A stretch of 64,000 nucleotides of DNA from a virus, in IMG/VR virus record IMGVR_UViG_3300047678_000169, positions 1 through 64,000 of that record; one strand, given 5' to 3'. Positions 7,066 through 41,413 of the stretch are shown here, one piece after another (within the stretch, counting starts at the first letter, position 1; each line of letters starts with the position of its first letter). The notes under the pieces are model-generated. The model worked only from the letters and a program-made list of their open reading frames with translations, was not told the DNA's origin and made no database searches. Made by a program: the position numbers and the translations under genes.

Positions 7066-7066
7066 G

Positions 7067-8265: not shown

Positions 8266-8266
8266 A

Positions 8267-8803: not shown

Positions 8804-8851
8804 GAGACAGAATCATTTCATATAGAAGTGATTCTGTCAATGTATAATAAC

Positions 8852-9970: not shown

Positions 9971-9975
9971 AATGT

Positions 9976-10512: not shown

Positions 10513-10514
10513 GA

Positions 10515-11664: not shown

Positions 11665-11681
11665 TGCTATAAATATGTAAA

Positions 11682-12152: not shown

Positions 12153-12183
12153 CGGTAATGTGGTCGTTTAATCTTCGTCACGT

Positions 12184-15350: not shown

Positions 15351-15602
15351 TTATTCTGTCCAGGTTGGTAAGTTTAAATCTGCGCAATCTTGGGATAGGT
15401 AGCCTATGACCCAATATTTGTTGTCATTTGTTTCAAGCATCAAATAATATTTCCATCTATTTTCTGCCCAAGTTTCGTGATAAGCTATCGATAGTCTTTC
15501 ATAGTATGGACTCGAAATATGATTTTTTACATATTCAATATTTTTCAAGTCTTCAACTGAATTGAAATCGTATTCTGTTTGTTGTCTGTCTAAAAATTTC
15601 AT
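15351..15602 (-). CDS. hypothetical protein
   Basis: ORF in operon. Confidence 0.55.
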   Translation of the reverse strand: MKFLDRQQTEYDFNSVEDLKNIEYVKNHISSPYYERLSIAYHETWAENRWKYYLMLETNDNKYWVIGYLSQDCADLNLPTWTE

Positions 15603-25165: not shown

Positions 25166-25986
25166 AAACCCAATTCCTCTTTAAAATTATCAAATAACCA
25201 AGCAGTAACATCATTTCTGAATTTTACATCGCCCGTGATATGAACCACGTTGGTTATGTCTTTGAAGGAAGTTTTGGGGTCTAATTTGCGACCCAATGCG
25301 TCAATCTGGCCGTCAAATAGAGTCCTTAACGTGTAATCCATGACATTGAACGAACGCGGTAGCAATGTGACAGGAAACTTGTTGTCTCTTACTGTAAAAT
25401 TGAGAATGGTTTGGTCATCGGTAAAATCAGGAGATTTATTAACTTCACACCACTTTTTATATTCTCTATGAAAAAATTCATATACCTCGTCCAAAGCCTT
25501 CTTATGTTTTTTACTGTATATGACCATACCACCATTGATGTAATTTTCCCAAGAAACATCGGTTACTGTTGGAAACCAGTTTTCTCTAACCATTCTTATT
25601 GAACGGTTGAGTGCCGGTGCATATCCTCCGTCTGGACAACCCCCGAAGTTGCCATCAACCATCTTGAAAAAATCTGGCGCCCAAGGCATAATGAATGTAT
25701 CCCAATCAACCGCACATACTTGTTCAAATTCAATCTTGTTTTTCTCAAGTGCGTCTATAATCTTCATTCGCTGAAAGATTCCTGGAACCTTAGCTTGGTC
25801 TTCAAATTCCGTTTCAAGAAATATGAATTGATAACCATGTTTTTCACACCACGCGTGCCACGAATAAGCGCATCTTTGAACAAATGGTTGATGTGGGGGC
25901 GTGGTTGGGCCACGCATTGCAGTCATACACACTACGTTTTTCATATTGGCATCTCCTTGAAAGTTCTTATCCAAGCCCATCTCCAC
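25162..25986 (-). CDS. GT-A (GT8/GT34-like) glycosyltransferase
   Basis: VDWDT (DxD), YINGG, DDQTILN, SFN, VVHITG. Probable start MKNVV near 25944. Confidence 0.75.
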   Translation of the reverse strand: MEMGLDKNFQGDANMKNVVCMTAMRGPTTPPHQPFVQRCAYSWHAWCEKHGYQFIFLETEFEDQAKVPGIFQRMKIIDALEKNKIEFEQVCAVDWDTFIMPWAPDFFKMVDGNFGGCPDGGYAPALNRSIRMVRENWFPTVTDVSWENYINGGMVIYSKKHKKALDEVYEFFHREYKKWCEVNKSPDFTDDQTILNFTVRDNKFPVTLLPRSFNVMDYTLRTLFDGQIDALGRKLDPKTSFKDITNVVHITGDVKFRNDVTAWLFDNFKEELGL

Positions 25987-26714
25987 AACTGTGCAATACT
26001 TTTATTATGTTTATCTTCTTCTGTCAAAGTTCTTCCCTTAGAGAATGTATTTCCATTCATCCTCTGTGATTGTAATTTTTTATGTTCTTCCGTCCAAGTT
26101 TTACCAAGAGAATATTTGTTACCTATAGCGCTTTTACTAAGCTTTTGTTTGTGTTCATCGGAAAGTTTTTTTCCAAGAGTAGCGGTGTTTCCCATTTTTG
26201 CTATTGATAATTTCTTCCTATATTCATCAGATTTCATCATTGTCTGGAATTTTTCACTGTTCTTCATTCCATTAGATATTTTCTTCAATGTCTCTTTACA
26301 GACATTTGATGGGCTGTCCCCAGCTCCATAACAATTATATCCATTATGAACCGAATCTTTTTTATTTATCCAAAAATTTTCTCTACCTTTCAACCCAATT
26401 AAATTTGGTCGCTGTTCAAGTATATGAAAAACAAAATTTTCTATTCCATGCTTCATAATGGCTCTATAAAGTTTCCACTGTTTTGAAAATTTCAATTTCT
26501 TATAGTCTCCCCACCGTTTATGTATGTTCTTGCTCCTTCCAACATACCATTTATCAGGCTTGATTTTATTTTGTATTCCATACACACCAATGATTTCAGT
26601 CTTTAGATGCCCAATATCGTTGCATTTGAATTTTTTTATATCGTTCTTTATTTCGAGCGTAGTGTTCTCTTTTCCACCGTTTTTCAGCCTCTTGTTTTTC
26701 TTTAGTAGATTCAT
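25941..26714 (-). mobile_element. GIY-YIG homing endonuclease with NUMOD3 repeats
   Basis: GVYGIQN..WYVGRSKN..R, NGYN, repeated GKKLSDEHK. Confidence 0.85.
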
Positions 26715-26779: not shown

Positions 26780-27667
26780 TTATTGAACTATTTCTAACAT
26801 TTCTTTTACAACGGATTTGGTTGTAAGATTCTTTCTCGTGTGGTCTAACAATTGATTGACGGTATCTTTATACCAATTCATATCTATTTTTGCGCTAGCA
26901 ACTACCTCGTTGGATTTCAATATCAATTCCTTTGGAAATTTCATCATTGTTTCTGGAGGACATTTTTCCAAGTCCGGAAAATATGGTATGCAGCCGTTCA
27001 TAAGGATTTCTAGGTGTCTAAGCGTGTCCCACCCCCCCTTTTTGAAAGTCAAGCCAAAATATGATTTCTGATAGTCTTCGAAGTAAGGTTTCTCCTCATC
27101 GAAAATGTATGTTTCCAACTTTCCAGGTTGAACAGTTCCCCAATCTTGGGATTTCTCTGGAACAGAAGACAATACTTTTTCTTCTGGTATACAGAAATTA
27201 ATAGGATGTAATCTATCAGTTGGAGAAGTATTCAATTCACGTTTGAAAAGGTGACCGCCAACATCAATAAGACTATAATCAATTCCCTGATGGTCTTCTC
27301 CGTCGATGAAAATAATCTTACCCTTGTTGTAGACTTTCAATACTTCTTGTATGTAATCTTGACAACGAGTGATTGAGCCATAAACAACGTAATCAAAATA
27401 CTTGGAACGAATTTTATCGACCAAATCTATTCTTAGAGAGTCGTCTATGTCTTCAAACGTTCCATACAACGTAAATCCTCTTCCATAGCTTCTACCTTGG
27501 TCTGGAACTCTCTCAGTCCAATACTGCTCCTTGTCTTTTTTATACATATGCCAAATTTTATTAGCATCAATTACATCAGCTCCAAAAAGAGAGCGCAGAC
27601 CGTGAAACACCATGTCCGATTGAAAATCTGGTAAATCTCCCTTAGCTATGAATAGAATTTTCATCAT
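26780..27667 (-). CDS. putative glycosyltransferase (GT-B-like C-terminus)
   Basis: FIDGED, FKRE, S.FGLTFKKGGWDTLRHLEILMNGCIP. Confidence 0.6.
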   Translation of the reverse strand: MMKILFIAKGDLPDFQSDMVFHGLRSLFGADVIDANKIWHMYKKDKEQYWTERVPDQGRSYGRGFTLYGTFEDIDDSLRIDLVDKIRSKYFDYVVYGSITRCQDYIQEVLKVYNKGKIIFIDGEDHQGIDYSLIDVGGHLFKRELNTSPTDRLHPINFCIPEEKVLSSVPEKSQDWGTVQPGKLETYIFDEEKPYFEDYQKSYFGLTFKKGGWDTLRHLEILMNGCIPYFPDLEKCPPETMMKFPKELILKSNEVVASAKIDMNWYKDTVNQLLDHTRKNLTTKSVVKEMLEIVQ

Positions 27668-28392
27668 TATATTATGGCTCTACCATGTGGTTTTGTCAAT
27701 GAGAATTTAATATCATCTCTCACGGCCAAAGAAATTTGTCTAGCTGAAAAATAAGTGGCCAAGATATTCTCAGCGTTTTCAAAGTGGTGTGAATTTAGGT
27801 TGGTCACAAACCTTGGAACATATAGAAAACATTCACAAGCAGCAGTCATAACGTCCGGCCTTCCCCAAAATATTTGGTCAATGATTCCCATGTGGCCGGT
27901 TCTTACGATTAGATTTCCAATTTCAATGTCTTTGATACTTGGTTCGACAATATCTTGAACAAGTTCCGTGTCGAATCGGAGCCTAACTACAGCATCATAG
28001 GTTGTTCCAGTTTCTGCTGAATAAACAATTCTCAGATGGTCAGCATCATATATCTTTCGAAACATCGAATTGTTTTGAGACAGTTGAGAACCATTTCTGG
28101 TTACTATACCCTTCCATTTGGTTTCTAATCTATTTACAGAACCATCGGTAGCTCTCTCGATGTGGAAATTTCCATGAACTGGCTTGTAGGTGGATAAAAG
28201 CCTATCGGTTACGTCGCTAAATTCAAGAGGCGTTGTTGCATGATGAACGAATTGGACGCCCACGCCACTCTCCACCCAACTGGATAAGAATACATCGCAA
28301 TCATACTTATCCAACAAAAATTGTTTCAATGCTGGATAGGTTAATTTGTCCCCATCACGTAAATGACCAGATATACAGACAGCTATTTTCAT
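27667..28392 (-). CDS. polysaccharide-locus protein of the MKIAVCISG.LR family (putative transferase)
   Basis: MKIAVCISGHLR, YDAVVRLRFD, DQIFWG. Confidence 0.6.
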   Translation of the reverse strand: MKIAVCISGHLRDGDKLTYPALKQFLLDKYDCDVFLSSWVESGVGVQFVHHATTPLEFSDVTDRLLSTYKPVHGNFHIERATDGSVNRLETKWKGIVTRNGSQLSQNNSMFRKIYDADHLRIVYSAETGTTYDAVVRLRFDTELVQDIVEPSIKDIEIGNLIVRTGHMGIIDQIFWGRPDVMTAACECFLYVPRFVTNLNSHHFENAENILATYFSARQISLAVRDDIKFSLTKPHGRAII

Positions 28393-28886
28393 TGTAAATC
28401 TTTCTTGAGTTGTTCAACGTTTTTAGAGCATATTCCATATGCTTTCTTCATTTCTTCTCTAGACCACCCATTCTCCTCAGGCATTACTAATACACTTCTT
28501 GGTAAAGCAAATTTATAAGGATTGTTAACATGTGTCCAAACATAAGCTCGGCTGGTGATGGTATAGTCATCCTCTTGATGCCAAAAATAATGCATAGGAT
28601 TGAATGTAGCCGTCAACCATCTTGGACACGATGAAAGGACGCTCAAAGCATCAATGTTCTTACAATGGAGCCACAACCCATCCTTGAATATGAAATCACT
28701 TGGAACTTCATATTCAGGTTTGTCATGTCCTAAGAACCACTTACCATCGATATATCGAATATCAACCTCGACATCATATCCGAGCATCAAAGCAAAGTTG
28801 ACCCTTTCTGGATGATTTTCTAATCCAGAATTTGGCCCGGCTATCAATGCTCTGTGTGCGATTAATTTCAAGACTTGATTCCCCAT
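28389..28886 (-). CDS. GDPD-like (PLC-like) phosphodiesterase
   Basis: IAHRA, EN, DVEVDI, LGHD, WLHCKN, FWHQEDDYT. Confidence 0.75.
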   Translation of the reverse strand: MGNQVLKLIAHRALIAGPNSGLENHPERVNFALMLGYDVEVDIRYIDGKWFLGHDKPEYEVPSDFIFKDGLWLHCKNIDALSVLSSCPRWLTATFNPMHYFWHQEDDYTITSRAYVWTHVNNPYKFALPRSVLVMPEENGWSREEMKKAYGICSKNVEQLKKDLQ

Positions 28887-30073
28887 TTGTTCACAGCAAT
28901 ACCATATTCCATTCCATATGCCTTATCGATAGATTGTCTGATGGCTCTTGCTCCGGCAACCGTTCCCATTGGGTGTCCGTGAATGGCTCCCCCAACGTTT
29001 GCCATATAATCTACTCCAAATCGTTTGTTGATACCTTCAATCAATCCGGCGTGCATACCACAGCTCAAAGCTGGGACTACGTTTCCATCACGAAGAACCT
29101 TTAAGGTCTTTTGCAAATCTTCTTCTGATTCGCTCATATATCCACCCCACATTCCTGAATGGATTGTGTCAGCTCCCATCAAGGCAGCTAGCTGACAGAT
29201 AATATCCCAAGCGATGCTGAAGCGGTGTGATTTGTCGGTGAATACTTTGTCGCCACTCTTTTGAAAGTGAAGATACAACGGGAGGTCCAATCTTCTAACT
29301 GAATTATATGCTCCAAGACCACACCAAACATTCAAGTGAATACCATTGCCACCAGCATCAGCAACAAATTTGGCTCTGTCCAAGATAGCGTGTGGGTCAG
29401 CATTGATGGCGGTGCAATAGACCACCTTGCGGCTTTGATTGTTGAGCCAATTTGAAATCAATGGAACTCTTTCCTTTAAAGAACACACCGATGGGTTGGA
29501 TAGAATTTCGTCTTCTTTGATAAAATCTACTCCACCATCAACCAACTCCTTTACCATTTCCAATAGAATCTTTGGAGAAATTCCAGTTTTTGGTTTGATG
29601 ATAGCTCCAAACAGAGGCTTGTCATATTGGCCTGTGTAGTTTCTCATTCCGGAGAAACCGTATTTTGGTCCTTTAAAATGCTTCTTGACGTTATCAGGAA
29701 TATCTAAACCAATCAAACGACAGCCTTGAATTATGTCAATATCCATTTGTCCTCCCATTAGTTGACACAATAGGTGAGAAATACCATCATCTTCCCAATC
29801 GGTGTTTGCTACTGGAAATCCAATTCTAATGTCTCCATGTGTCTTCTTTCGTAGGTCATCTTCAGTAAATTCGGTTATAACAATACACGAATGATTTTCA
29901 AATAATTCATCTGTTTCGTGAATGCTACGCACGTTTGGATTACCAACACTCTGACCAATGGCTAGGTTCCATGCTGCGTCTCTAAGATTTGAGTCGAGCG
30001 TAGAACGCAATTGATACGTGGCAATTACATAATCGTTCTGATTAACATCTGTCAGTGGTTTAAATAACTTCAT
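28868..30073 (-). CDS. RuBisCO-like protein (form IV RLP)
   Basis: GPKYG, IIKPKTG, DFIKEDE, IHSG, PALSCG, GGAIHGHPMG. His294 and Lys334 equivalents appear replaced, so a carboxylase is unlikely. Confidence 0.9.
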   Translation of the reverse strand: MKLFKPLTDVNQNDYVIATYQLRSTLDSNLRDAAWNLAIGQSVGNPNVRSIHETDELFENHSCIVITEFTEDDLRKKTHGDIRIGFPVANTDWEDDGISHLLCQLMGGQMDIDIIQGCRLIGLDIPDNVKKHFKGPKYGFSGMRNYTGQYDKPLFGAIIKPKTGISPKILLEMVKELVDGGVDFIKEDEILSNPSVCSLKERVPLISNWLNNQSRKVVYCTAINADPHAILDRAKFVADAGGNGIHLNVWCGLGAYNSVRRLDLPLYLHFQKSGDKVFTDKSHRFSIAWDIICQLAALMGADTIHSGMWGGYMSESEEDLQKTLKVLRDGNVVPALSCGMHAGLIEGINKRFGVDYMANVGGAIHGHPMGTVAGARAIRQSIDKAYGMEYGIAVNKWGIKS

Positions 30074-30383
30074 ATTTGTCGTTTGGTAGTGAGGGTGATT
30101 TGATGCACAAAACTTTACAGTCTTCGTGAAAAATTGGGTCGGCTACTTCACCAGCATCAATGGTGAATATGTCGCCTTTGGATAATAGCGTTCCACATAT
30201 CGTCATACTTCCTTCTAAGAGGACGTTATGTTCAATAGCTACTTTGTGATAATGCTTGGGCCATTTTTCGTCCTTCTTATGGGTAAGAACACCAATTTCA
30301 ACGTAGTCAGTCTTCCATATCGAAGGATTGAAATTTCCAACGAACCAACCACGATGCATATCACTTAATTTAAGAACTTTCAT
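30060..30383 (-). CDS. cupin-fold protein
   Basis: RGWFVGNF.P, HYHKVAIE, K.PS...DKY. Confidence 0.75.
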   Translation of the reverse strand: MKVLKLSDMHRGWFVGNFNPSIWKTDYVEIGVLTHKKDEKWPKHYHKVAIEHNVLLEGSMTICGTLLSKGDIFTIDAGEVADPIFHEDCKVLCIKSPSLPNDKYEVI

Positions 30384-31135
30384 TTTGAATTCTCAAGTTC
30401 TACAAACTTAGCTAAATCTTCGGGAGTTCCGACAGCGTGATGTTGTTCATTTGGGATGTGATATACACCAACGGAAACTCCTCTATTTATAAGATAGTTG
30501 TATGTTGGGCCAACGTAATACTCTCCATTTGGTGCGGTATCTTTCAAACGAATCATTTCTTCGGCTGAAGACACAAAATCCCTTCCTTGTTTCCAATAAT
30601 GAATTCCGTTGAGGGAGATGTTGCTAATAACCTTTTTCTCCTTTACCTCCACAACATATCCCGACCTATCCAACTTAGCATAACTGTTCTTTGGAGTTTC
30701 TGAAAAGTATGTGACGATTGTTCCTGAATTGTATCTAGCATTGTGTAGAAATAAATCAGAATTCCACCACATTACTTGGTCACAATTTGCCACTACTAAC
30801 TCTTCATTGTTGTCGATTTTGTCCTTAAATAACAAAACAGAAGACGCCGGGCCAGCGGTTACATAATCGATTTCAACAAACTCAGCATTTGGAAGTATTG
30901 AATGAACCACACTCTTGAGCTTGGAAGTGTATGCGTCCTTTCTGACAACGAAATGATACTTGCCAGGCAGATTCAATGACTTGATTGCCTTAACAATCAT
31001 TGGTTCTCCATTAATGTCAATTAGTGGCTTTGGGATAGAATATCCTGCGTCAGCGAAACGTGAGCCGATTCCGGCCATTGGTATTACGATGTTCATACTT
31101 GCTTTGGTGGGTATTTGTGCTTCACTTGATTCCAA
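30380..31135 (-). CDS. sugar-phosphate nucleotidyltransferase (GlmU/RmlA-like fold)
   Basis: MNIVIPMAGIGSRF..GY..PKPLI, NCDQ, EKK.IS, GEYYV, GTPEDL. Probable start MNIVI. Confidence 0.85.
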   Translation of the reverse strand: MESSEAQIPTKASMNIVIPMAGIGSRFADAGYSIPKPLIDINGEPMIVKAIKSLNLPGKYHFVVRKDAYTSKLKSVVHSILPNAEFVEIDYVTAGPASSVLLFKDKIDNNEELVVANCDQVMWWNSDLFLHNARYNSGTIVTYFSETPKNSYAKLDRSGYVVEVKEKKVISNISLNGIHYWKQGRDFVSSAEEMIRLKDTAPNGEYYVGPTYNYLINRGVSVGVYHIPNEQHHAVGTPEDLAKFVELENSK

Positions 31136-31833
31136 TAGTTAATCCAAGATGCTGCTGGTGGGTGGAGTTTGTGATAGAATAATTCATCATCTGGTAAATT
31201 GTTGTAGTCCATATACCATCCGTAGTGATGTGCCTGATACAAACCACCAGTTCTGATGGAATTGGTGGAATAGGCTCCGTGAAAATTTGGGCGATTGAGG
31301 GCGAATGTCGTGTCGATAGTGGCACGATAAACATCTGGCTTCAGTGGTTCTTTCCAAAAAGTTGATTCATGAACGAGGACTTGTTCTTTGAGGGGATAGT
31401 GGTCTGGCAAATCATCAAGCTTCAATCCAAAACCAACCTTGTCAGGATTGAATTCTTGCATGATGTTGTAGAAATGCTCTAAGAAATTCTCAGGACAGTC
31501 TTTTGCTGGAATTACATCATTGTCGGTTAAAACATTATAACTTCCCGTAAACATGGCTCCAAGATAGGTTCTTTCAAACACCAAAGGTCCAGATTCTCCA
31601 TGTTCAAATCGATGAACGGTGAACATCTTACCATCATACGCCTTTAAAAAATCAAGAAGAGGTTGATAGGTAGAACCACAGTCAGCTATATGGAGATTCT
31701 TATACCCTCTACTTGTCAATGCTTCCAATTGTTGAACCATACAGTTCAATCGATTGTGACAGACAATGATAATGGGAATTTCTTTGAAGTTCATGTAAGA
31801 ATATCGAAGTGTAATCCATTTTCTTTCTCCCAT
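31093..31833 (-). CDS. GT2-like glycosyltransferase
   Basis: IIIVCHNR, IADCGSTY, TDND, IDTTFAL. Confidence 0.7.
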   Translation of the reverse strand: MGERKWITLRYSYMNFKEIPIIIVCHNRLNCMVQQLEALTSRGYKNLHIADCGSTYQPLLDFLKAYDGKMFTVHRFEHGESGPLVFERTYLGAMFTGSYNVLTDNDVIPAKDCPENFLEHFYNIMQEFNPDKVGFGLKLDDLPDHYPLKEQVLVHESTFWKEPLKPDVYRATIDTTFALNRPNFHGAYSTNSIRTGGLYQAHHYGWYMDYNNLPDDELFYHKLHPPAASWINYWNQVKHKYPPKQV

Positions 31834-32600
31834 TCCTTTGTGGTGATATTCAAATCAACAGGAGAAAAATGGCTTACACCATGTTTGACATAAGGATATA
31901 AACCAAAACGGGAAGAAAGCCAAGGAAAAACTACTTCTCCATACCATCTATTTTTGATGCGTGTCTTAAAATAAGAATCTGGAGCTTTTTTTAGAAACCA
32001 AGACACAACGCTACCTTTGATAACATAAAAAGTCTCAACGTAAGACCAATTAACATGAGTATATTTTAGTTCGTCAAAAGGTATGTTCTGAACGATTGGC
32101 ATTTCTCCGTGGTCGAACTCTAAATGGTCAAGAGTCTTCCATTGAGTATGTCCGTCAGCCGATTGGCCAACCCCATAATGTCCATAGACACCGATGGAAG
32201 GATTTCTATCCAACAGTGCTTCAATTTCTGTTCTTTTGGATAGAAATTCATTGAGATAGTATTCGAATCTATCCTGACGGTCATTTACTCCACCTTTGGT
32301 ATGGGCGAACCACACGTTCTTATATGGTTCCTTTGTCCTCATTCTCATTGCTTTTAAGGCAGCTTGAGTTCCAGATGCGTCTGACTCACAATATAATTCC
32401 CTCGGCACCACTGATACCACAAGATTTTGGTGTTTGGAGCTCAATATTTTGTTATAGACTTCATTGCAAGTGTCTGGATTGATTCCTACGAATACATCAG
32501 CATCGGCGAAAGTGGTTTCCAATACCTCTAACCACCTATCAATCATCCAAGCTTTGGAAGAGTTGAAAATAGAAACGGAAAATACGACAGCAGATTTCAT
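31791..32600 (-). CDS. putative glycosyltransferase (HTKG motif, rhamnan synthesis F-like)
   Basis: VWFAHTKG motif; glycan-locus context. Confidence 0.5.
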   Translation of the reverse strand: MKSAVVFSVSIFNSSKAWMIDRWLEVLETTFADADVFVGINPDTCNEVYNKILSSKHQNLVVSVVPRELYCESDASGTQAALKAMRMRTKEPYKNVWFAHTKGGVNDRQDRFEYYLNEFLSKRTEIEALLDRNPSIGVYGHYGVGQSADGHTQWKTLDHLEFDHGEMPIVQNIPFDELKYTHVNWSYVETFYVIKGSVVSWFLKKAPDSYFKTRIKNRWYGEVVFPWLSSRFGLYPYVKHGVSHFSPVDLNITTKEWEKENGLHFDILT

Positions 32601-33535
32601 TGAATGTGGTGTTTTAAGTCTTCAACCGAAGCAGCTATTCCAGCATCCATTTCAAATATTGGGCTCCATCCGGTATCTATCCACAATTTGTAATTGCTGA
32701 TGTGGGTGCTTTTAACGTCCCAATCTGGAGGTTTACAATATTCGATTGTAATTTCCGTATTTGTTTCTTTGGATACTTGCCTAATAATATCGTTTATAGA
32801 GTAAGACCTTCCGCTACATACATTGTAGGTTCCGACCAAATCATCTTCAAGAATAGCCTCAATGGCTCGAATAAAATCTAAGTAATAGATAAAATCTTTG
32901 GTCGCCCTGCCATCTCCCCAGATTCTTAAAGTTTCATGTTTAATGGCTGCTTGTATAACCATTGGTATGATGCCCTGTATTTGATTTCTACCATTTGGAA
33001 TGTATTTTCCATATGGATTGGTAATTCTCAAATTCAAATGGTCCGGAGCTTGAGACACTATTCTTTCAGCAAATAGTTTTGCTTGAGCATACCAACCAAT
33101 CGGATTCATATATGTCAGAGATTCATCTTTCTGGACATATAGTTCAGACCCATCGGGAAAAATTGTTCTAGCAATTGCTTCGCCATAAACGGCACCGGTG
33201 GAAAAGAATACAAGTTTGGTTCCACTTTCGGTGGCGTGTTGAGTTAACAATCTGACATTGTGATAATCCTCTGAGGTGTTCCAAGGACTTCTTTTCATTT
33301 CGGCTATCGATGGAACGGTGGTCCATGATAAATGAAACACATAATCAGATTTTTTTAGATAATCGGAGTTGAACAATAGTTTAACATCTTCATAACCTTT
33401 GCCGGGCGTCCTTGAAAAAAGAGTGACTTCATATTTCTGTGGGTCGAGATATGATTTGATTAGTGTTGCTAGGCGGCCACGGCCACCTGTAACAAATACT
33501 CTCTTCTTTCTTTCAGCCATGTTAGTATTTAACAA
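32597..33535 (-). CDS. NAD-dependent epimerase/dehydratase (extended SDR)
   Basis: VFVTGGRGRL, STGAVYG, YAQAK, RITNPYG, WGDG..KDFIY. Confidence 0.88.
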   Translation of the reverse strand: MLNTNMAERKKRVFVTGGRGRLATLIKSYLDPQKYEVTLFSRTPGKGYEDVKLLFNSDYLKKSDYVFHLSWTTVPSIAEMKRSPWNTSEDYHNVRLLTQHATESGTKLVFFSTGAVYGEAIARTIFPDGSELYVQKDESLTYMNPIGWYAQAKLFAERIVSQAPDHLNLRITNPYGKYIPNGRNQIQGIIPMVIQAAIKHETLRIWGDGRATKDFIYYLDFIRAIEAILEDDLVGTYNVCSGRSYSINDIIRQVSKETNTEITIEYCKPPDWDVKSTHISNYKLWIDTGWSPIFEMDAGIAASVEDLKHHIQ

Positions 33536-34124
33536 TCTTTACCAATTTGTCGTTGTTGAAGAATTCTACGCTCTTTATGTTTTCAGATACAAATTTATTC
33601 TCTTCGTAAGATAGATGTGGGCTAGCAAATGAATTGGTTGTTTCCCAATTTCTCAACAAGAAGTCGGTTCTCTCAGCAGCTGGATACAAGGGACAGGTGT
33701 GAAGGTCTTCGATGAAATAAATTCCTCCAGACTTCAAGGCCTTCAATAGAACAAAGAGGCTGACCTGTTGGTGTGGCATTTGGTGTGCTCCATCATCAAC
33801 GATGAAATCAAGAGGTTCCATATCAGGAATCATACTATTCAAGTGCTCTCTATTGGTTTGGTCTAGAATATAGACCTTTTCACAAATACTCTTGTCAAAG
33901 AATGAAGAACAATCATTAATATCCATTCCCCAGAGCTTCATTTCTGGATTATATTCTTTCCACATTCTCAAAGAATCTCCATGCCAAATCCCAATTTCAA
34001 GAAGTTTGACTGGGCCTTCACTTGGGACATATTTCTCATACGTCAATGTATAGGAATGTTTTTCAAACCATTCCGTTCCTTTGTCTGCGTGGTGCTTGTT
34101 AGCAATTTCTGTTAAATTTCTCAT
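33522..34124 (-). CDS. class I SAM sugar O-methyltransferase-like protein
   Basis: DKG..HSY, LLEIG, DQ, IVDDGAH, GGIYFIED. Confidence 0.8.
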   Translation of the reverse strand: MRNLTEIANKHHADKGTEWFEKHSYTLTYEKYVPSEGPVKLLEIGIWHGDSLRMWKEYNPEMKLWGMDINDCSSFFDKSICEKVYILDQTNREHLNSMIPDMEPLDFIVDDGAHQMPHQQVSLFVLLKALKSGGIYFIEDLHTCPLYPAAERTDFLLRNWETTNSFASPHLSYEENKFVSENIKSVEFFNNDKLVKIVKY

Positions 34125-34855
34125 GTTAGTAGTATTGTGTAGTAGTCTTGAGTTTTTCTCATATAGTCGTCAGTCACTTCTGAGCCTGTGGATGGACCAG
34201 AAACAATGAGTCCTCTTAAATAATGTGACCTTAATTCAATCAAGTGTTCGATGTTTTCTTGAAAGTTTGGCATCATTGGTGGATGGATGGATAATAGAGT
34301 TGGAGGAATCTCATTCCTCAAGAATATAGATTTAGCTACAGCATATTCCCCACCCTCAATATCAATCTTTACAAAGTTAATATTACCAGCTTCTTCAATT
34401 ATAGAACTGACATAATCATCTAAGGTCATACACTCCGTTTCAAATGATAGCTCAGGCCTGAAATTTCCAACTCTTGTTACACTTTCTCCAAGTCTATTGT
34501 CGGAGCCCAACGTCATCTTTCCTTTGTAATCAGATAGAGCAAATTGATTCACTATGATGTTGGTGAATCCATTTAATGCTATGTTCTTGAACAGTTCTTC
34601 TTGAGCAACTGGGTCTGGTTCAAAGCAGTGAACTTTCTTGGCTAGTTGGGAGCCGTATAAGACGGTTGGACCTATCCACGCCCCAATGTCCAGATAACTT
34701 CTGTCTTTTACCAAGTGTTCATCAAAAATCTTATAAATTTCCGATTCCCATCCGGAGTTTCCCCAAAATGGTCCGTTCGGAGTTCCTTCTGTAACATTAA
34801 ATGTGAGATTGTTTCTTTTTACGTTCATAGGCCCATATTTTCTTTTTGTGACCAA
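34121..34855 (-). CDS. FkbM-family methyltransferase
   Basis: LDIGAWIG, FEPDP, VKIDIEGGE. Confidence 0.88.
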   Translation of the reverse strand: MVTKRKYGPMNVKRNNLTFNVTEGTPNGPFWGNSGWESEIYKIFDEHLVKDRSYLDIGAWIGPTVLYGSQLAKKVHCFEPDPVAQEELFKNIALNGFTNIIVNQFALSDYKGKMTLGSDNRLGESVTRVGNFRPELSFETECMTLDDYVSSIIEEAGNINFVKIDIEGGEYAVAKSIFLRNEIPPTLLSIHPPMMPNFQENIEHLIELRSHYLRGLIVSGPSTGSEVTDDYMRKTQDYYTILLT

Positions 34856-35520
34856 TTCTTCAAATAGAATTCGTTTTGTTTTGTTTGTCTTTCGATGGTC
34901 TTATCGTGTATCAGAGAGAAATTAACATCAATTGGCAATTCCGCAACAACCTTGGCTCCGGAGATTCTTTCATGTAGCTTTCTCTCCCACTTAATATCAG
35001 ATGTATTTCTATAGATTCTGCCCTGTTTGTCTCCTGAGTTCCAGTTGATAATTGGTAGACCAGGAAACTCTTCCAAGAACGATACATGCCACCCCCATCT
35101 TTTAGCATCGGCCTCGGTCAAACCTCTGACAATATTAACTCTTGGAACCCTATACAACTCTACAGATGGATTCGATTCCAATATCTCATGTATGTTCTCA
35201 ATCAAAAAATCAGAAGGATATTCGTCAGCGTCTATTTGAAATACCCAACGATTTTTACAGTTGAGGGTTCCGAAGTTTTTATGTGCTCCAAAATCCCCAT
35301 CTAAGTTGTGCTTGATTACTCTTCCCAATTTGGAAGATGTGCTGAACAATGGGTGGAAAGCCAGTATCTTCTTAGTCTCTTCATTTGTTGAATTATCATC
35401 AACAATGATGATTTCATCGTCGGTGTTAGCAACGGTGTGATATAGTTTTTCAAGAAGCCGACTCAATTCGTCGGCTTCGTTGTGAACCGTTATCAAGTAA
35501 GAGATACTTGACTTAGCCAT
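34825..35520 (-). CDS. GT2 glycosyltransferase (WaaE-like)
   Basis: ITVHNE, VDDNS, FQIDADE, LHE. Confidence 0.88.
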   Translation of the reverse strand: MAKSSISYLITVHNEADELSRLLEKLYHTVANTDDEIIIVDDNSTNEETKKILAFHPLFSTSSKLGRVIKHNLDGDFGAHKNFGTLNCKNRWVFQIDADEYPSDFLIENIHEILESNPSVELYRVPRVNIVRGLTEADAKRWGWHVSFLEEFPGLPIINWNSGDKQGRIYRNTSDIKWERKLHERISGAKVVAELPIDVNFSLIHDKTIERQTKQNEFYLKNWSQKENMGL

Positions 35521-35523: not shown

Positions 35524-37140
35524 TTACATTCCTTCTTGTGGAATCTGCTGTTGAATTTGCTCGGCCTCATCTTCAATGTCAGCAATCATACATTCGGTGG
35601 TCAATAATAGACCAGCGATGGATGCAGCGTTTTGAAGAGCGGTGCGCGTGACCTTTGTTGGGTCAACAACTCCGGAAACAACCAAGTCTTGATAAACATC
35701 GGTTGCGACATTGTAACCGTAATTTCCCGTGTTCTTCAACACTTCACTTACTACAACGTCTCCACTCTTTCCTGCATTTGAACACAGCATCTTGATTGGG
35801 TGTTCGATGGCTCTACGAACAATTTGAGCTCCAATTTGTTCATCGCCTTCTAACTTGAGAGCGTCAATAACCGAAGCACATCTCAATAGAGCAACTCCTC
35901 CACCCGGAACAATTCCCTCTTCAACTGCGGCACGTGTTGCGTGCAAGGCATCTTCAACACGGTCTTTCTTTTCTTTCATTTCGGATTCGGTGGCTGCGCC
36001 CGTGTGGACAACTGCAACTCCGCCAGTTAGTTTGGCAAGGCGTTCTTGAAGCTTCTCACGCTCGAAGTCAGAAGTCGATTTCTCAATTTCATTCTTAATG
36101 AGCTTAATACGAACTTCAATGGCAGCTGGTTTGCCCGTTCCGCCGATGATGGTGGTGCTATCCTTTGTTACAATAATCTTCTTAGCCTGACCCAAATCAG
36201 CAAAGGTTAATTTGTCAAGATTGAGCCCAAGCTCAGAGGTAATCAATTTTGCTCCAGTGATGGTCGCAATGTCCTCGAGGGTAGCACGGCGTCTATCACC
36301 AAATCCAGGTGCCTTAACAGCACATGAAACGAAAGCTCCACGAACTCTGTTTACAACCATAAAGGCGAGAGCATCACCCTCAACATCTTCAGCTATAACA
36401 AGGAGCTTCTTTCCCATCTTAGCAATTTCTGTAAAGAATTTGGCCAATGGGGCTATGGTGGTGAGCTTCTTTTCGATAACCAGAACCAAAGCGTCATCAA
36501 GAACAGCTTGTTGGGTTTCTTGGTCTGCAAAATAAGCGGAAATGAATCCCTTATCGAACTGCATACCCTCAACGACCTCAAGAGTCGTATCCATTGAGCT
36601 AGCTTCTTCAACGGTGATTGTTCCATCCTTACCAACCTTATCCATGGCGTCGGCAATAATGTTACCAATTGAGGTATCCCAGTTGGCGGAGACGGTGGCG
36701 ACCTGGCGAATCTCTTCGCTGCTGCTTACCTTTTTAGAGATTTTGGCTAATTCTGCTACAGCAGCTACTACAGCCTTGTCGATACCACGCTTCAAATACA
36801 CCGGATTTGCGCCAGCGGCTACGGTCTTTAGACCTTCACGATAGATTGCGGATGCAAGAACCGTTGCGGTGGTTGTTCCGTCTCCGGCCAAATCGTTGGT
36901 CTTGGAAGCAACTTCTTTTACCATTTGAGCACCCATGTTCTCAAACTTATCTTTGAGTTGAATAGACTTAGCAACCGTAACTCCGTCTTTGGTAATCAAT
37001 GGAGAACCAAATCCACGTTCGATGGCGACATTGCGACCCTTGGGCCCCAATGTTACACTGACCGCATTTGATAGGGTTGTTACTCCAGCCAAGATTTTAT
37101 TTCTGGCCTCTGCACTAAATAGGATTTCTTTTGATTTCAT
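35524..37140 (-). CDS. groL: chaperonin GroEL
   Basis: [43 protein letters not shown]; no GGM tail. Confidence 0.97.
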
Positions 37141-37142: not shown

Positions 37143-37436
37143 TTATTTCTCGACTCCGAGGATTTCTTCGATGTGTAGAAGATAGTGTTTGGCACCATCA
37201 ACCTTAAATTCATTTCTTAGGTTCTTAGGAACAATAGCGGTAGCCTCAGGAACAAGCTCTTCTGGAACTTGAACGTCCTTGGTTCCCTTACCGACAGCTA
37301 TTACAACGGCTCTATTGAGTCCATCAACTGCTGTAGGTGGTATGTAAAGTTCAAAATCACCTGATTTTGTGGTTTCTTCGGCCTCAACAAGTCTTACTAA
37401 GACCATGTTGCCAAGTGGAATTATTGTTTTGCTCAT
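37143..37436 (-). CDS. groS: co-chaperonin GroES (divergent)
   Basis: [22 protein letters not shown]; adjacent to groL. Confidence 0.85.
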
Positions 37437-38722
37437 AGTTTTTCGATTTTCTTAAATTTAGGTAATACCAACTGAACTTTCTTTTCAAAGACTGGTAAAT
37501 GTTTTTCTATAACTTCAATCAACAACTTGTTACCAGCCTCAAGGGTGAACTTTTCAGAATTCTCAAGTCGGAGTTTTTCCGCATTTGGGACGTAGTTGAT
37601 GTAATTTTCAAATACATCATTCATCTTACCAGCTGCGACACTGTAGTTTACGGTATACCAGTTTCCTTCTTTGACAATCCATTCATTGACTGCTGAATCG
37701 GGTATGTTGGTCAATGTTCCAGGCAACAATACCGCTAAGGTCTTTGGTAAAAAGTCCAATTGACCTGACCAACCAGAAGCAATTACTGGCTTGCCACTCA
37801 ACGATGCTTCTAGTAGAGGGCGACCAAATCCTTCTCCGTGAGTAAAGCAAACGTGTGCTTTTACCTTTGGGTGATTGTATAGTCGATTCATTTCTTCAAG
37901 GCTTAGGTCGCCATGAACAAGATAGACGTTTGGTAAGTTTCCTTCCAATCCATGACGGGCACGATTAATCTTCTTCAAGATTTCATCCTTATCCATTTGA
38001 GAGAAATTGGCTCCAGAAGTCTTTAGAATCAATGCCGGTGCGTTCTTTTTATTCTTAAACACTTCACTGAACACCTTGACCAACATTCCAATATCCTTGC
38101 GGTCGGCTCCCAAGTCTCCTTGTAGCCAGTGACCAACCATCAAGAAACCAAATGTCTCTGGAATACTATTCATCATTTGGTCAATCGCAGGATTTTCCTT
38201 TTGGGTCTTTTTAAAGATGGATGTGTTCACCCCTTCAAATGCCACTTCGATTGGCTTGTTGAGAGCAACAGCCTCTTGGCGGCCGTCTGGATGGGTTCTT
38301 GTAAATGAAGCCTTAACAAATACATCCTTTGCAAATTTAGAAGGGACGATGTTAAGATTCATTCTGTTCAAACCATCAATCCATTCAGCCTTCGGTAAGG
38401 TTGTTTCAATACCGGCGGTGATACCAATGTTGAATTTACCCATTGCTTGAAATTCATTTGGTATGGATACCTGAACGAATAGTTCTGGCTGAGTGGTGAT
38501 AGGTGCTGTAGCAATTGCTGCTCTAATCAAAGCGCTGTTTGGGTCTTCGTCCGTGTCCAAAGCAGTGTTTGGACAAGCCCCCCAACGCATAGGAATGATT
38601 TTCAAATCAAACTTTCCCCAGTTGATGAGTGCGATGCATATCTGCCTCATGTGGTCCCCATACCCGCTCCGAGATTGGACGGGTCCCTGTATTACACAAA
38701 TTGGTTTTATTTCTTGATTCAT
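37433..38722 (-). CDS. GT4 (GT-B) glycosyltransferase
   Basis: SRSGYG, GEGFGRPLLEA, PVIASGWSG. Confidence 0.88.
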   Translation of the reverse strand: MNQEIKPICVIQGPVQSRSGYGDHMRQICIALINWGKFDLKIIPMRWGACPNTALDTDEDPNSALIRAAIATAPITTQPELFVQVSIPNEFQAMGKFNIGITAGIETTLPKAEWIDGLNRMNLNIVPSKFAKDVFVKASFTRTHPDGRQEAVALNKPIEVAFEGVNTSIFKKTQKENPAIDQMMNSIPETFGFLMVGHWLQGDLGADRKDIGMLVKVFSEVFKNKKNAPALILKTSGANFSQMDKDEILKKINRARHGLEGNLPNVYLVHGDLSLEEMNRLYNHPKVKAHVCFTHGEGFGRPLLEASLSGKPVIASGWSGQLDFLPKTLAVLLPGTLTNIPDSAVNEWIVKEGNWYTVNYSVAAGKMNDVFENYINYVPNAEKLRLENSEKFTLEAGNKLLIEVIEKHLPVFEKKVQLVLPKFKKIEKL

Positions 38723-39913: not shown

Positions 39914-41413
39914 TTATTTGTTAAATTTTGATAATACTTTGTCTTTGTCGATTGGAGGAATTATGAATCCAAGATTATTGTCTGGCATCTGATGACCTAC
40001 GTATTCGTCATGGCGGTGAAGATTAAACTTCTCTCTTCCCTTCCAGTTGACCATCATTGAATCGAGTCCTTCAATCATTTTGTTACACATGTTTCCGGAG
40101 TTCAATCCTCCAATTCCATTAGCGTATTCACGACCAAGTGCTCCATATTCGGTTCTTTTCTCATGACCAACGCTATACCAATACATCAATGCTTCAGCAG
40201 CATCTTCCCAGCGAGCATAGTCTGCCAAGATGTAAGGAGTTGGAATTGAACCCTGTAAGAGTCTAGCGCCTGGATAAATTGGCGTTACCCACTTACCATG
40301 CTTTTGGTATCTACCATCGTGGTTACTTCCCCATGTAGTATCAAATTCAACGAGCTTTCCAGATTCGTCTTGGAAACCACATTGGTCTTGAAGACCTCCG
40401 GTAACAGTTACAATGATTGGAGTTCCTGCCATGAGACTTTCAGCTGTTCCCAATCCAAATCCTTCATTGTCAGAAAGATTGATGGTAACATCAGCCAAAT
40501 TATACAAGATGTTCATTTCTGCTGGACCATACTTTCCATTACTGAATAGAACATCATAGTTCGGACACAGCGCTTCCTTACATGCAATCAAATCGGTTCC
40601 AGCATCTTCGACTGGGTTAGTGTGAAGTAAAAATACACACTTAGCAGCTTCTTCCTTTGGAAGATTGTCACAGAAGGCTCGGTAAGCGAGCATAATGGAC
40701 GATGTTTGTTTACGACGAATATTTCTACTGTTGTAAAGAACAACATATTTGTAATCCTTCTTAAAGAGGGATTTCTTCATTGCAGCCACCTTGGCCAAAT
40801 CAGCTTCGGAAGTCAATGGACGAAATACGTCGGGATTGATTCCGTGTGGGACATAAGTAACTGTGGTCGGCTTGTTATATGTGGTTCCCAAGATGCTCTT
40901 AACAATGTTTTCAGTTTGTTTGCTGATACATCCAATCCAATCACAGCTTTGATAGAATGGGCGATTATACATTGGGTATGGTAGGTCGTCCCAAATTGAA
41001 TAGAATCCAATTGGAACCTTTTGACGAACTTCACGTTCAATTCCATATAGCCAAATCCAGAAACGTGGGTCAGTGAAGTGGAGAATAGCGTCTGGCTTTT
41101 CCAAGCCCATTACTTCATTCAAGATTTCAGGGCTTCCATATCCATCGACTGGATAGAGTTGAACATATGGGTCAACGATGCCGGTTTCTACCTTTGTAGC
41201 ATCATTGAGGTTCATGACCCTACCCTTTTCAGGATGTTGAACAGCTCCGGCGATTTGTGCCCAATTATATTTGTGAGCGGTTCCCATTACGAATTCTCTG
41301 GCCATCGTTGCGATGCCTGAGTGCATTCTTAGGTCGTCACAGAGAAGCAAAATCTTTTTGCGTTGTTCCTTTGGTAAGTATCCTTCACGTTGTCCGATAA
41401 TAGAGAATGACAT
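39914..41413 (-). CDS. GT4 (GT-B) glycosyltransferase
   Basis: DDLRMHSG, VPHGI, RNIRRK, NEGFGLGTAESL. Confidence 0.9.
   Translation of the reverse strand: MSFSIIGQREGYLPKEQRKKILLLCDDLRMHSGIATMAREFVMGTAHKYNWAQIAGAVQHPEKGRVMNLNDATKVETGIVDPYVQLYPVDGYGSPEILNEVMGLEKPDAILHFTDPRFWIWLYGIEREVRQKVPIGFYSIWDDLPYPMYNRPFYQSCDWIGCISKQTENIVKSILGTTYNKPTTVTYVPHGINPDVFRPLTSEADLAKVAAMKKSLFKKDYKYVVLYNSRNIRRKQTSSIMLAYRAFCDNLPKEEAAKCVFLLHTNPVEDAGTDLIACKEALCPNYDVLFSNGKYGPAEMNILYNLADVTINLSDNEGFGLGTAESLMAGTPIIVTVTGGLQDQCGFQDESGKLVEFDTTWGSNHDGRYQKHGKWVTPIYPGARLLQGSIPTPYILADYARWEDAAEALMYWYSVGHEKRTEYGALGREYANGIGGLNSGNMCNKMIEGLDSMMVNWKGREKFNLHRHDEYVGHQMPDNNLGFIIPPIDKDKVLSKFNK

What the first reader, a model, noticed from the sequence alone, without database searches (positions are those of the whole stretch)
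27667..31135. Phage-encoded sugar-building module centred on a RuBisCO-like protein
Seen: overlapping, tightly coupled genes NTP-transferase > cupin > RLP > GDPD-like > MKIAVCISG-family protein, embedded among glycosyltransferases. The RLP keeps K175/K177 (KPK), the carbamylation motif (KEDE rather than KDDE), H327, S379 and the GG..GHP phosphate loop. The H294 site reads Q (LHFQKSG) and the loop-6 K334 site reads Y (HSGMWGGY). Established: form IV RLPs catalyse enolisation, isomerisation or transcarboxylation of sugar phosphates in methionine salvage and in branched-sugar (apiose, hamamelose) catabolism. Inference: this RLP works biosynthetically, making an unusual (possibly branched or keto) sugar phosphate that the cupin and GDPD-like enzymes adjust, the NTP-transferase activates and neighbouring transferases install. 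That would be an uncharacterised RLP reaction carried by a virus. No methionine-salvage genes are in the window.
Basis: partly seen in the sequence, partly recalled or inferred. Interest (0 to 1): 0.88.

Follow-up and report, generated by a model that had tools for sequence, protein, structure and literature searches.

The report
Phage RuBisCO-like sugar-activation gene cassette
A large uncultured phage carries an intact RuBisCO relative that lacks residues needed to fix CO2; in phages, bacteria and tiny archaea it sits beside, or is fused to, a nucleotide-attaching enzyme in surface-sugar gene islands, pointing to an untested donor-building role.

Summary
Five overlapping minus-strand genes at 27667-31135 encode a nucleotidyltransferase (NT), a small cupin, a 401-aa RuBisCO-like protein (RLP), a 165-aa mini-GDPD phosphodiesterase and a DUF7796-like protein. 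They lie among epimerase, methyltransferase and glycosyltransferase genes. The RLP keeps the Mg/carbamate site and the glycine phosphate loops but has Q at H294 and Y at K334, both invariant in its clade.

In 129 loci (80 viral, 49 cellular), NT accompanies the RLP in 121, mini-GDPD in 90 and the cupin in 71. RLP-NT, GDPD-RLP and NT-GDPD fusions exist. No mtn genes were found.

New here: cultured cyanophages carry the same NT, DUF7796 and (in S-CAM9) mini-GDPD families with a DHBP synthase or HAD domain fused to NT and no RLP there. Four Legionellaceae place LicD beside RLP-NT.

Best reading: the RLP is one interchangeable front end of an NT-centred module that makes a nucleotide-activated sugar or keto-sugar phosphate for glycans.

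Limits: substrate and product are unknown. Phage RLPs were already reported (Jaffe 2019), and this scan has noted the cassette in at least 70 other genomes. The clade is not virus-specific.

The parts
30380..31135 (-). Nucleotidyltransferase (NT). The longest ORF is 251 aa from a TTG; the likely start is the ATG at 31096, giving 238 aa. It is the hub of the cassette.
   Evidence: PF12804 at 29.8 bits, cut-off 27. phrog_3980 at 5.7e-57. Family profile against PDB: 4evw 4.5e-36, then Man-1-P, Glc-1-P and heptose-1-P nucleotidyltransferases at about 1e-9 to 1e-11. Present in 121 of 129 RLP loci. Found fused to RLP, GDPD, HAD or DHBP synthase elsewhere.
30060..30383 (-). Small single-domain cupin (107 aa) with HxH...E metal motif.
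   Evidence: phrog_24762 at 1.6e-31. Model pLDDT 97. Best Foldseek match is the Thermococcus mini phosphomannose isomerase 7zvm (E 7.5e-6, TM 0.67, rmsd 2.3), within a crowd of other cupins. H44, E51 and N53 are invariant and H46 nearly so; the usual fourth His is not conserved. Present in 71 of 129 loci.
28868..30073 (-). RuBisCO-like protein (401 aa) of the 'IV-like' clade; not expected to carboxylate.
   Evidence: PF00016 at 2e-39. Below every NCBIfam equivalog cut-off. Best PDB hit is 4nas at 2.1e-38. Clade-invariant residues: K160-P-K162, K186, D188, E189, Q271, Y312, S337, G339, G361 (G362 nearly invariant). Its clade is separate from the rest at SH-aLRT 99. dN/dS 0.018.
28389..28886 (-). 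Miniature GDPD-fold phosphodiesterase (165 aa; 'P165' in the full report).
   Evidence: phrog_34507 at 1.5e-24. Model pLDDT 91.8. VIA-align Z 11.5, rmsd 3.4 over 154 residues to the P. furiosus GDPD 7e0v; about the first 30 rows are GDPD or PLD-type phosphodiesterases, apart from one glucanase entry. HR, E-x-D and H are invariant. Profile aligns to the Pfam-positive GDPD domain of an NT-GDPD fusion at 94.8% probability. Present in 90 of 129 loci.
27667..28392 (-). DUF7796-like protein (241 aa, starts MKIAVCISG, motif SGxxR; 'P241' in the full report). Candidate modifying or transfer enzyme; function unknown.
   Evidence: phrog_13607 at 3.5e-12. 17 of 34 relatives hit PF25072. Atlas neighbours are named capsular polysaccharide biosynthesis proteins. 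Present in 47 of 129 loci, often as several paralogues. Paralogues flank the NT in cyanophages S-CAM9 and S-SKS1.
26780..27667 (-). 295-aa protein of unknown family, a recurrent but looser neighbour.
   Evidence: Homologues in 11 of 80 viral loci. No Pfam, PHROG, NCBIfam or PDB match.
31093..35520 (-). Upstream glycan genes: two unknowns (246 and 269 aa), an NAD-dependent epimerase/dehydratase, two methyltransferases and a GT2-like glycosyltransferase.
   Evidence: PF01370 at 2.7e-23. phrog_21658 and phrog_8156 methyltransferases. Weak GT2-type NCBIfam hits.

Best explanation
The cassette builds a nucleotide-activated sugar-like unit that nearby transferases attach to a glycan.

Shown:
- The RLP keeps the carbamylated-lysine/Mg2+ site (K186, D188, E189), K160/K162 and the glycine phosphate loops.
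- It has clade-invariant Q at H294 and Y at K334, and it replaces E60, T65, W66 and N123.
- Its gene is locked to a nucleotidyltransferase across viruses, bacteria and archaea, and is sometimes fused to it.

Inferred:
- The RLP does not carboxylate.
- It enolises, and so isomerises or epimerises, an open-chain keto-sugar phosphate, probably one drawn from the pentose-phosphate pool.
- The cupin, where present, adds a metal-dependent isomerisation.
- The NT joins NMP to the product's phosphate.
- The mini-GDPD handles a phosphodiester, either releasing a precursor or trimming the installed unit.
- The RLP (with cupin) is one of several interchangeable front ends of an NT-centred module that often includes DUF7796 and mini-GDPD genes. 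A DHBP synthase or a HAD domain is fused to that NT in phages or loci where it is not paired with an RLP.

Preferred detail (about 0.35 on its own): the donor is linked through a terminal, non-anomeric phosphate, as in CDP-ribitol, CDP-6-fructose or CDP-choline, and is transferred as a phosphodiester-linked unit.
For: - Linkage: NT in 121, mini-GDPD in 90 and cupin in 71 of 129 RLP loci.
- Fusions: RLP-NT (P0126) and GDPD-RLP (P0158); NT-GDPD in Micrarchaeota.
- Active site.
- Glycan context in phages: GT2, GT11, GT25, WavE, epimerases, DegT, FkbM and sugar C-methyltransferases.
- Glycan context in cells: a weak Wzz-like hit, GT2 and GtrA in Francisellaceae; PAPS genes and GT41 in Azospirillum.
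- Interchangeable front ends: NT-DHBP synthase fusion in cultured phage S-SKS1 (PF00926, 5e-65); HAD-NT in S-CAM9, L053 and L087. S-CAM9 has DUF7796 paralogues and a mini-GDPD homologue around its NT; S-SKS1 has DUF7796 paralogues. DHBP synthase also lies inside two RLP islands.
- For the phosphodiester detail: LicD is conserved beside RLP-NT in four Legionellaceae; the partner has a GDPD fold; from general knowledge, DHBP has only a terminal phosphate.
- Purifying selection on the RLP: dN/dS 0.018.
Against: - No substrate, product or nucleotide is identified. Everything downstream of homology is inference.
- The NT's nearest characterised relatives are sugar-1-phosphate enzymes (ManC, RmlA, HddC), not IspD; LicC and TarI were not among the 60 rows shown.
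- The cupin's best structural match is a phosphomannose isomerase.
- The order NT-then-cupin mirrors bifunctional ManC (general knowledge). These three points favour a classical glycosyl donor.
- The cupin and the mini-GDPD are absent from many loci.
- The glycan target (host surface, virion or other) is unknown.
- This 80-kb record shows no structural phage gene.
Confidence: 0.55

Rival explanations
1. Classical NDP-glycosyl donor route resembling GDP-mannose or NDP-heptose synthesis. The cupin acts as a PMI-like aldose-ketose isomerase. The NT activates an anomeric sugar-1-phosphate. The RLP and a phosphoesterase (GDPD or HAD) prepare the 1-phosphate from a ketose 1-phosphate or a bisphosphate.
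For: - NT profile is closest to Man-1-P, Glc-1-P and heptose-1-P nucleotidyltransferases.
- The cupin's best match is the Thermococcus mini-PMI 7zvm.
- The gene order NT-cupin mirrors the domain order of bifunctional ManC (general knowledge).
- HAD-NT fusions.
- GT2 plus GtrA beside the cassette in Francisellaceae.
Against: - No mutase or anomeric kinase belongs to the conserved core.
- GDPDs are diesterases, not monoesterases.
- The NT-DHBP synthase fusion and the LicD neighbours fit a terminal-phosphate donor better.
- Cupin fold matches are promiscuous: many unrelated cupins score nearly as well.
Confidence: 0.25
2. Salvage or catabolic role. The RLP acts as in methionine salvage, the MTA-isoprenoid shunt or 5-deoxyribose disposal, recycling SAM or nucleoside by-products during infection. 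The cupin would then act as a methylsulfurylase-like or ARD-like enzyme.
For: - Known RLP functions are catabolic or salvage reactions, and an RLP-cupin pair exists in the Rhodospirillum rubrum shunt (general knowledge).
- Best PDB hit is 4nas, deposited as a ribulose-bisphosphate carboxylase; I recall it as an MtnW-type RLP, which is unchecked.
- Radical-SAM genes sit near some cupin-less cassettes.
- A SAH-hydrolase-like gene and a deoxynucleoside-kinase-like gene lie in the Nonomuraea locus.
Against: - Scores are far below the MtnW equivalog cut-offs: 162.6 against 409, and 125.8 against 513.6.
- The clade is separate from the MtnW clade.
- No MtnA- or MtnB-type gene is in the record.
- The recurrent neighbours that could be annotated are all glycan-synthesis enzymes.
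- An obligate NT partner has no place in those pathways.
Confidence: 0.07
3. The activated product is not for a surface glycan. It is used for DNA or nucleotide hypermodification, a cofactor or a small natural product.
For: - Large phages use sugar donors to modify DNA (general knowledge).
- DHBP synthase is a riboflavin-pathway enzyme (general knowledge; its presence is).
- The Nonomuraea locus looks like a small biosynthetic cluster beside an integrase.
Against: - Cellular loci carry a weak Wzz-like hit, GtrA, LicD, GT41 and PAPS genes.
- SAR11 and DPANN carriers have the cassette among glycosyltransferases and methyltransferases.
Confidence: 0.08

Closest known systems
'Form IV-like' RuBisCO-related proteins of phages and Beckwithbacteria (Jaffe, Castelle, Dupont and Banfield 2019, PMC6389311)
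   Same: A divergent clade related to form IV/RLP, found on IMG/VR phage contigs including large myoviruses, with residues unlike known form IV proteins. A Beckwithbacteria sequence groups with it, which I also see (L092).
   Different: That paper left the function open. In the passages I read it does not describe the NT/cupin/GDPD cassette, the fusions, the wide cellular distribution or the glycan context.
MtnW/YkrW 2,3-diketo-5-methylthiopentyl-1-phosphate enolase, and the Rhodospirillum rubrum RLP (MTRu-1-P 1,3-isomerase) with its cupin partner
   Same: RuBisCO fold with a retained carbamate/Mg site and one phosphate site. The chemistry is enolisation without carboxylation. The R. rubrum system also pairs an RLP with a cupin (general knowledge).
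   Different: This RLP falls below the MtnW equivalog cut-offs and in a separate clade. It has no mtn neighbours, a different invariant signature (Q271, Y312, GQS, GNP), and a nucleotidyltransferase as obligate partner.
Front-end enzyme plus cytidylyltransferase pairs for polyol or ketose phosphate donors (TarJ/TarI and Bcs1 for CDP-ribitol; the C. jejuni HS:5 CDP-6-fructose/glucitol route; LicC/LicD for phosphocholine). Recalled from general knowledge, not checked here.
   Same: The logic matches: a sugar-phosphate-modifying enzyme is adjacent or fused to an NT, and LicD-type phosphotransferases install the unit. LicD is conserved beside RLP-NT in Legionellaceae.
   Different: The front end here is a RuBisCO-fold enzyme, or DHBP synthase or HAD in sister modules. 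The NT is closer to the ManC/RmlA type than to IspD. The product is unknown.
Bifunctional type II phosphomannose isomerase / GDP-mannose pyrophosphorylase (ManC, AlgA, XanB)
   Same: A nucleotidyltransferase followed by a metal cupin. The cupin's best structural match is a mini-PMI, and the NT profile hits Man-1-P guanylyltransferases.
   Different: Here they are separate genes, the cupin is only 107 aa and lacks the conserved fourth His, and the pair is always accompanied by an RLP.

Membership tests
RuBisCO large-subunit superfamily (PF00016) | Significant match to the catalytic-domain model over most of its length | tested here: met
   PF00016 at 2e-39, 136 bits against a cut-off of 30.1, residues 141-384. 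99 PDB RuBisCO/RLP sequences match at E <= 0.001.
Carboxylating RuBisCO (forms I-III) | Full catalytic set: K175, K177, K201, D203, E204, H294, H327, K334, plus N123, E60, T65 and W66 | tested here: not met
   H294 to Q, K334 to Y, R295 to K, N123 to G, E60 to G, T65 to N, W66 to P. The Q and Y are invariant in the clade. rubisco_III scores 179.5 bits against a cut-off of 497.
MtnW/YkrW DK-MTP-1-P enolase | Score above the NCBIfam equivalog cut-off, placement in the MtnW clade, and mtn gene neighbourhood | tested here: not met
   162.6 against 409 and 125.8 against 513.6 bits. The MtnW representative P0228 lies in another clade. No PF01008 or PF00596 in the record.
OiaX-type apiose-pathway RLP (3-oxo-isoapionate-4-phosphate decarboxylase; the only apiose-pathway model that matched) | Score above the NF042437 cut-off | tested here: not met
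   150.4 bits against a cut-off of 700. The OiaX-like representative P0210 lies in a separate clade.
'IV-like' phage/Beckwithbacteria RLP clade (Jaffe 2019) | Groups with phage-contig RLPs and Beckwithbacteria, apart from the other RLP clades | tested here: met
   A 31-row clade at SH-aLRT 99. Beckwithbacteria L092 and a Patescibacteria sequence branch next to the viral crown.
GDPD / PLC-like phosphodiesterase (mini-GDPD protein, 28389-28886) | TIM-like GDPD fold with the HR...E-x-D...H catalytic and metal motif | tested here: met
   Z 11.5 over 154 residues to 7e0v. H11, R12, E40, D42 and H54 are invariant. hhalign gives 94.8% probability to a Pfam-positive GDPD domain. The protein itself gets no Pfam GDPD hit and is about 80 residues shorter than typical GDPDs.
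Cupin superfamily / PMI-type sugar-phosphate isomerase (cupin, 30060-30383) | Double-stranded beta-helix with a metal motif; for PMI, a specific active site and activity | tested here: inconclusive
   The fold is met (Foldseek probability 1.0) and HxH...E is conserved. Pfam Cupin_2 is below its cut-off. The PMI assignment rests only on the top structural match among many cupins.
Sugar/alcohol-phosphate nucleotidyltransferase (GlmU/RmlA/ManC-like fold) | N-terminal G-x-G-(S/T)-R nucleotide loop and a family-level profile match | tested here: met
   The motif PMAGIGSRF. PF12804 above its cut-off. Profile hits 4evw at 4.5e-36 and many sugar-1-P NTs. Nucleotide and sugar specificity cannot be tested with these tools.

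The most novel reading that the evidence does not exclude
This clade of the RuBisCO superfamily has an anabolic role. It makes a previously undescribed keto-sugar, or rearranged sugar, phosphate that is nucleotide-activated and built into surface glycans of phage-infected cells, SAR11, Legionellaceae and DPANN archaea. It would be one of several swappable front ends (RLP, DHBP synthase, HAD) of a widespread NT-centred module that often includes DUF7796 and mini-GDPD genes.
Probability: 0.45. Interest if true: 0.8.

Novelty: new variant of a known kind. Interest (0 to 1): 0.62.

Why it matters
Every characterised RuBisCO-like protein that I know of works in salvage or catabolism. A clade dedicated to building an activated glycan unit would give the RuBisCO fold a new kind of job.

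It would also explain the large 'IV-like' phage clade whose function was left open in 2019, and it might reveal an unknown sugar or sugar-phosphate decoration on abundant microbes such as SAR11, freshwater and marine phages, and DPANN/CPR organisms.

The question is now directly testable. Cultured carriers exist (Legionella drozanskii, L. nautarum, L. maceachernii, Nonomuraea rosea, Azospirillum oleiclasticum). So do cultured cyanophages with the sister modules (S-CAM9, S-SKS1).

Tried and rejected
- INPHARED phage records: no tblastn match to the RLP, no megablast match to 24-36 kb of the window, and no match to the 1251-aa ORF.
- Complex prediction for RLP plus NT gave no verdict: score 0.00, controls not run. 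This is not evidence either way.
- phmmer of the mini-GDPD protein against PDB gave nothing. Foldseek alone gave only weak GDPD rows at E about 0.02. VIA-align was needed to show the fold.
- PDB sequence searches for the 295-aa, 246-aa and 269-aa neighbours gave nothing. The 234-aa neighbour gave only a weak FkbM hit at E 0.033.
- Capsid (PF07068), T4 portal (PF07230) and terminase (PF03237) models found nothing in the 80-kb record. The first two did not ring in any control genome, so they are uninformative.
- No promoter or terminator enrichment in 26.5-36 kb.
- Sequencing runs: no RNA holder is listed. The only holders are two moss-metagenome DNA runs that may be the source of this DNA.
- Literature searches for RLP together with nucleotidyltransferase and cupin, with capsular polysaccharide, or with viral auxiliary metabolic genes found nothing relevant.
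- Considered and rejected: a pseudogene or decaying RLP (intact ORF, dN/dS 0.018), and CO2 fixation (H294Q and K334Y are invariant in the clade).


Full report
WHAT IS THERE

The window is the first 64 kb of an 80,238-bp IMG/VR virus record that CheckV rates about 29% complete. At 27667-31135 five minus-strand ORFs overlap one another by 4, 14, 19 and 4 bases. In order of transcription they are:
- a nucleotidyltransferase (NT): PF12804 at 29.8 bits, phrog_3980 at 5.7e-57;
- a 107-aa cupin: phrog_24762;
- a 401-aa RuBisCO-like protein (RLP): PF00016 at 2e-39;
- a 165-aa protein with no Pfam hit: phrog_34507, called P165 below;
- a 241-aa protein starting MKIAVCISG: phrog_13607, called P241 below.

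Upstream lie two unknown genes, an NAD-dependent epimerase, two methyltransferases and a GT2-like gene. Further glycosyltransferases sit at 37433-38722, 39914-41413, 52473-53291 and 15599-16801. Homologues of the NT begin at MNIxIPMAG, so its real start is probably the ATG at 31096.

THE RLP

- Across 26 diverse clade members the invariant set is K160-P-K162, K186, D188, E189, Q271, Y312, S337, G339 and G361, plus an N-terminal G-Q-S; G362 and the G-N-P loop are nearly invariant. That loop replaces the ESSTGTW loop of RuBisCO (E60 to G, T65 to N, W66 to P). N123 becomes G.
- The H327 position varies across the clade.
- So the metal/carbamate enolisation machinery and one phosphate site are kept. 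Residues I recall as needed for CO2 addition, hydration and binding of the second phosphate are replaced by a new, conserved set.
- The protein is below every NCBIfam equivalog cut-off: form III, MtnW and OiaX.
- Against its nearest relative (94% identical) dN/dS is 0.018.

PHYLOGENY

A scan of 1.8 billion cluster representatives shows a gap. About 30 full-length clusters score 170-510 bits. After that come ordinary RLPs and RuBisCOs at about 150 bits and 32% identity.

In a tree these form a 31-row clade (SH-aLRT 99) apart from clades I labelled by NCBIfam as MtnW (P0228), OiaX-like (P0210) and form-III-like (P0162, P0190). This matches the 'IV-like' phage clade of Jaffe et al. 2019, who reported about 80 phage RLPs, some on myoviruses, grouping with Beckwithbacteria, and left the function unclear.

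CONSERVED LINKAGE

- IMG/VR holds 256 contigs with a relative; the best 80 were fetched.
- A genome scan added 49 loci: SAR11 (including the record titled Ca. Pelagibacter sp. Uisw_094 complete genome), three Legionella species and Tatlockia, Francisellaceae, Nonomuraea rosea, Azospirillum oleiclasticum, Turneriella, Verrucomicrobia, Planctomycetes, CPR and many DPANN archaea.
- Over these 129 loci, NT is present in 121, P165 in 90, the cupin in 71 and the P241 family in 47.
- Gene orders vary: NT-cupin-RLP-P165 as in the window, P165-NT-RLP, and RLP-(cupin)-NT in most cellular lineages. The association is therefore kept through rearrangement.
- Fusions exist: RLP-NT (P0126, 667 aa), P165-RLP (P0158), and NT-GDPD in a Micrarchaeota genome.
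- None of the recurrent neighbour families that I could annotate is an mtn gene. They are GT2, GT11, GT25, WavE, epimerases, DegT aminotransferase, FkbM and Methyltransf_24 methyltransferases, a sugar C-methyltransferase, a cytidylyltransferase-like protein and radical-SAM/SPASM.
- The record has no IF-2B (MtnA) or class II aldolase (MtnB) gene.

THE PARTNERS

- P165. Its model (pLDDT 91.8) superposes on GDPDs at Z 11.5 over 154 of 165 residues. About the first 30 rows are GDPD or PLD-type phosphodiesterases, apart from one glucanase entry. HR, E-x-D and H are invariant. Its profile aligns with a Pfam-positive GDPD domain at 94.8% probability. It is a miniature, apparently catalytic, phosphodiesterase.
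- Cupin. The model (pLDDT 97) best matches the Thermococcus mini phosphomannose isomerase 7zvm, but many other cupins score nearly as well. HxH...E is conserved; the fourth His is not.
- NT. The family profile hits the uncharacterised Vibrio protein 4evw (4.5e-36), then Man-1-P, Glc-1-P and heptose-1-P nucleotidyltransferases. IspD ranks far lower.
- P241. It belongs to the DUF7796 family. Its Atlas neighbours are named capsular polysaccharide biosynthesis proteins.

1. Cultured cyanophages carry the same NT family, and the RLP search found no match in the cultured-phage collection.
- In S-SKS1 the NT is fused to a DHBP synthase (PF00926, 5e-65) and is preceded by three DUF7796 paralogues.
- In S-CAM9 the NT is fused to a HAD domain and is flanked by DUF7796 paralogues and a P165 homologue at 42% identity.
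- DHBP synthase also lies 1.4 kb from the RLP cassette in two viral loci.
- The RLP (with cupin) therefore looks like one of several interchangeable front ends of an NT-centred module that often includes DUF7796 and mini-GDPD genes.

2. LicD, a phosphotransferase family that uses CDP-activated alcohol phosphates (general knowledge), is conserved next to RLP-NT in all four Legionellaceae.

3. Other cellular contexts also point to glycans: a weak Wzz-like hit, GT2 and GtrA in Francisellaceae; CysD/CysNC (PAPS synthesis) and GT41 in Azospirillum.

4. Rooted on other RLPs, the deepest branches are cellular (Nonomuraea, Elusimicrobia and Turneriella; then Azospirillum, Francisellaceae and Legionellaceae; then SAR11 and DPANN). 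The viral sequences form a crown next to Patescibacteria. Caveat: only the 80 viral hits nearest the query were sampled, and it is a FastTree tree with long outgroup branches.

MECHANISM

Shown: homology, conserved residues, linkage, fusions and genomic context.

Inferred:
- The RLP enolises, and so isomerises or epimerises, an open-chain keto-sugar phosphate.
- The cupin adds an isomerisation.
- The NT activates the phosphate.
- Transferases install the unit.

I lean (about 0.35) to a donor linked through a terminal phosphate and transferred as a phosphodiester. The reasons are the LicD neighbours, the GDPD partner and the DHBP synthase fusion. The NT's and the cupin's nearest relatives argue instead for a ManC-like glycosyl donor (about 0.25). 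Salvage roles are unlikely. The tools cannot name the substrate.

IS IT A PHAGE?

The record has Dda-like and other helicases, exonucleases, an endonuclease, an RNA-ligase-like gene, a GroEL (phrog_5725, 4.4e-167), a GIY-YIG/NUMOD3 homing endonuclease and a tmRNA. It shows no capsid, portal or terminase with the models tried. Two complete relatives with the cassette (172.6 kb with terminal repeats, and 187.5 kb) do encode a large terminase.

NOVELTY

Phage RLPs are published. The cassette, the fusions, the cellular spread and the modular reading were not found in the searched literature. This scan has already noted the same cassette in at least 70 other genomes. My results agree with those notes and add the DHBP synthase/HAD modularity, the LicD linkage and the rooted tree.

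Noticed in passing
window 53961-54365 (-): A full-length tmRNA gene in a viral record. ARAGORN predicts a tag peptide, and Rfam RF00023 scores 70.4 bits against a gathering score of 47. From memory, phage-borne tmRNAs have been described in huge phages.
   Followed up: partly
L132 (Synechococcus phage S-SKS1, NC_020851) 6040-7467; L133 (S-CAM9, NC_031922) 4730-9426: Cultured cyanophages carry the same NT family fused to DHBP synthase (S-SKS1) or to HAD (S-CAM9). DUF7796 paralogues surround both, and S-CAM9 also has a mini-GDPD homologue. Neither locus has an RLP or the cupin. The S-CAM9 mini-GDPD match (8082-8537) is longer than the annotated hypothetical CDS there (8253-8540) and overlaps the end of the preceding HAD gene.
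   Followed up: partly
window 25941-26714 (-): A GIY-YIG plus NUMOD3 homing endonuclease lies just downstream of the cassette's 295-aa neighbour. It is absent from all 80 related viral loci, so it is probably a recent mobile insertion.
   Followed up: no
window 28389-28886 versus L003 6207-6692: Between the window and its nearest relative the RLP is 94% identical, NT 88% and the cupin 85%, but the mini-GDPD is only 53% and the DUF7796-like protein 62%. The downstream half of the cassette looks exchanged or much faster evolving.
   Followed up: no
window 35524-37140 (-): A phage-type GroEL chaperonin (phrog_5725, 4.4e-167) sits in the middle of the glycan island, followed by a 97-aa ORF.
   Followed up: no
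window 57215-60970 (-): A 1251-aa ORF with no PHROG match and no tblastn match in 50,697 phage records.
   Followed up: partly
L119 (Nonomuraea rosea) 5096-12920: In this actinomycete the cassette (mini-GDPD on the opposite strand, then RLP, cupin and NT) is followed by a GT2, a SAH-hydrolase-like NAD-binding protein and a deoxynucleoside-kinase-like protein. A phage-type integrase lies nearby. It may be a mobile small-molecule or nucleoside-sugar cluster.
   Followed up: no
L084 (Crocinitomicaceae MAG contig) versus L024 (IMG/VR): The two RLPs are identical. Several short 'cellular' contigs in MAGs and SAGs inside the viral crown are probably binned phage DNA, so the cellular count of 49 loci is an upper bound.
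   Followed up: no
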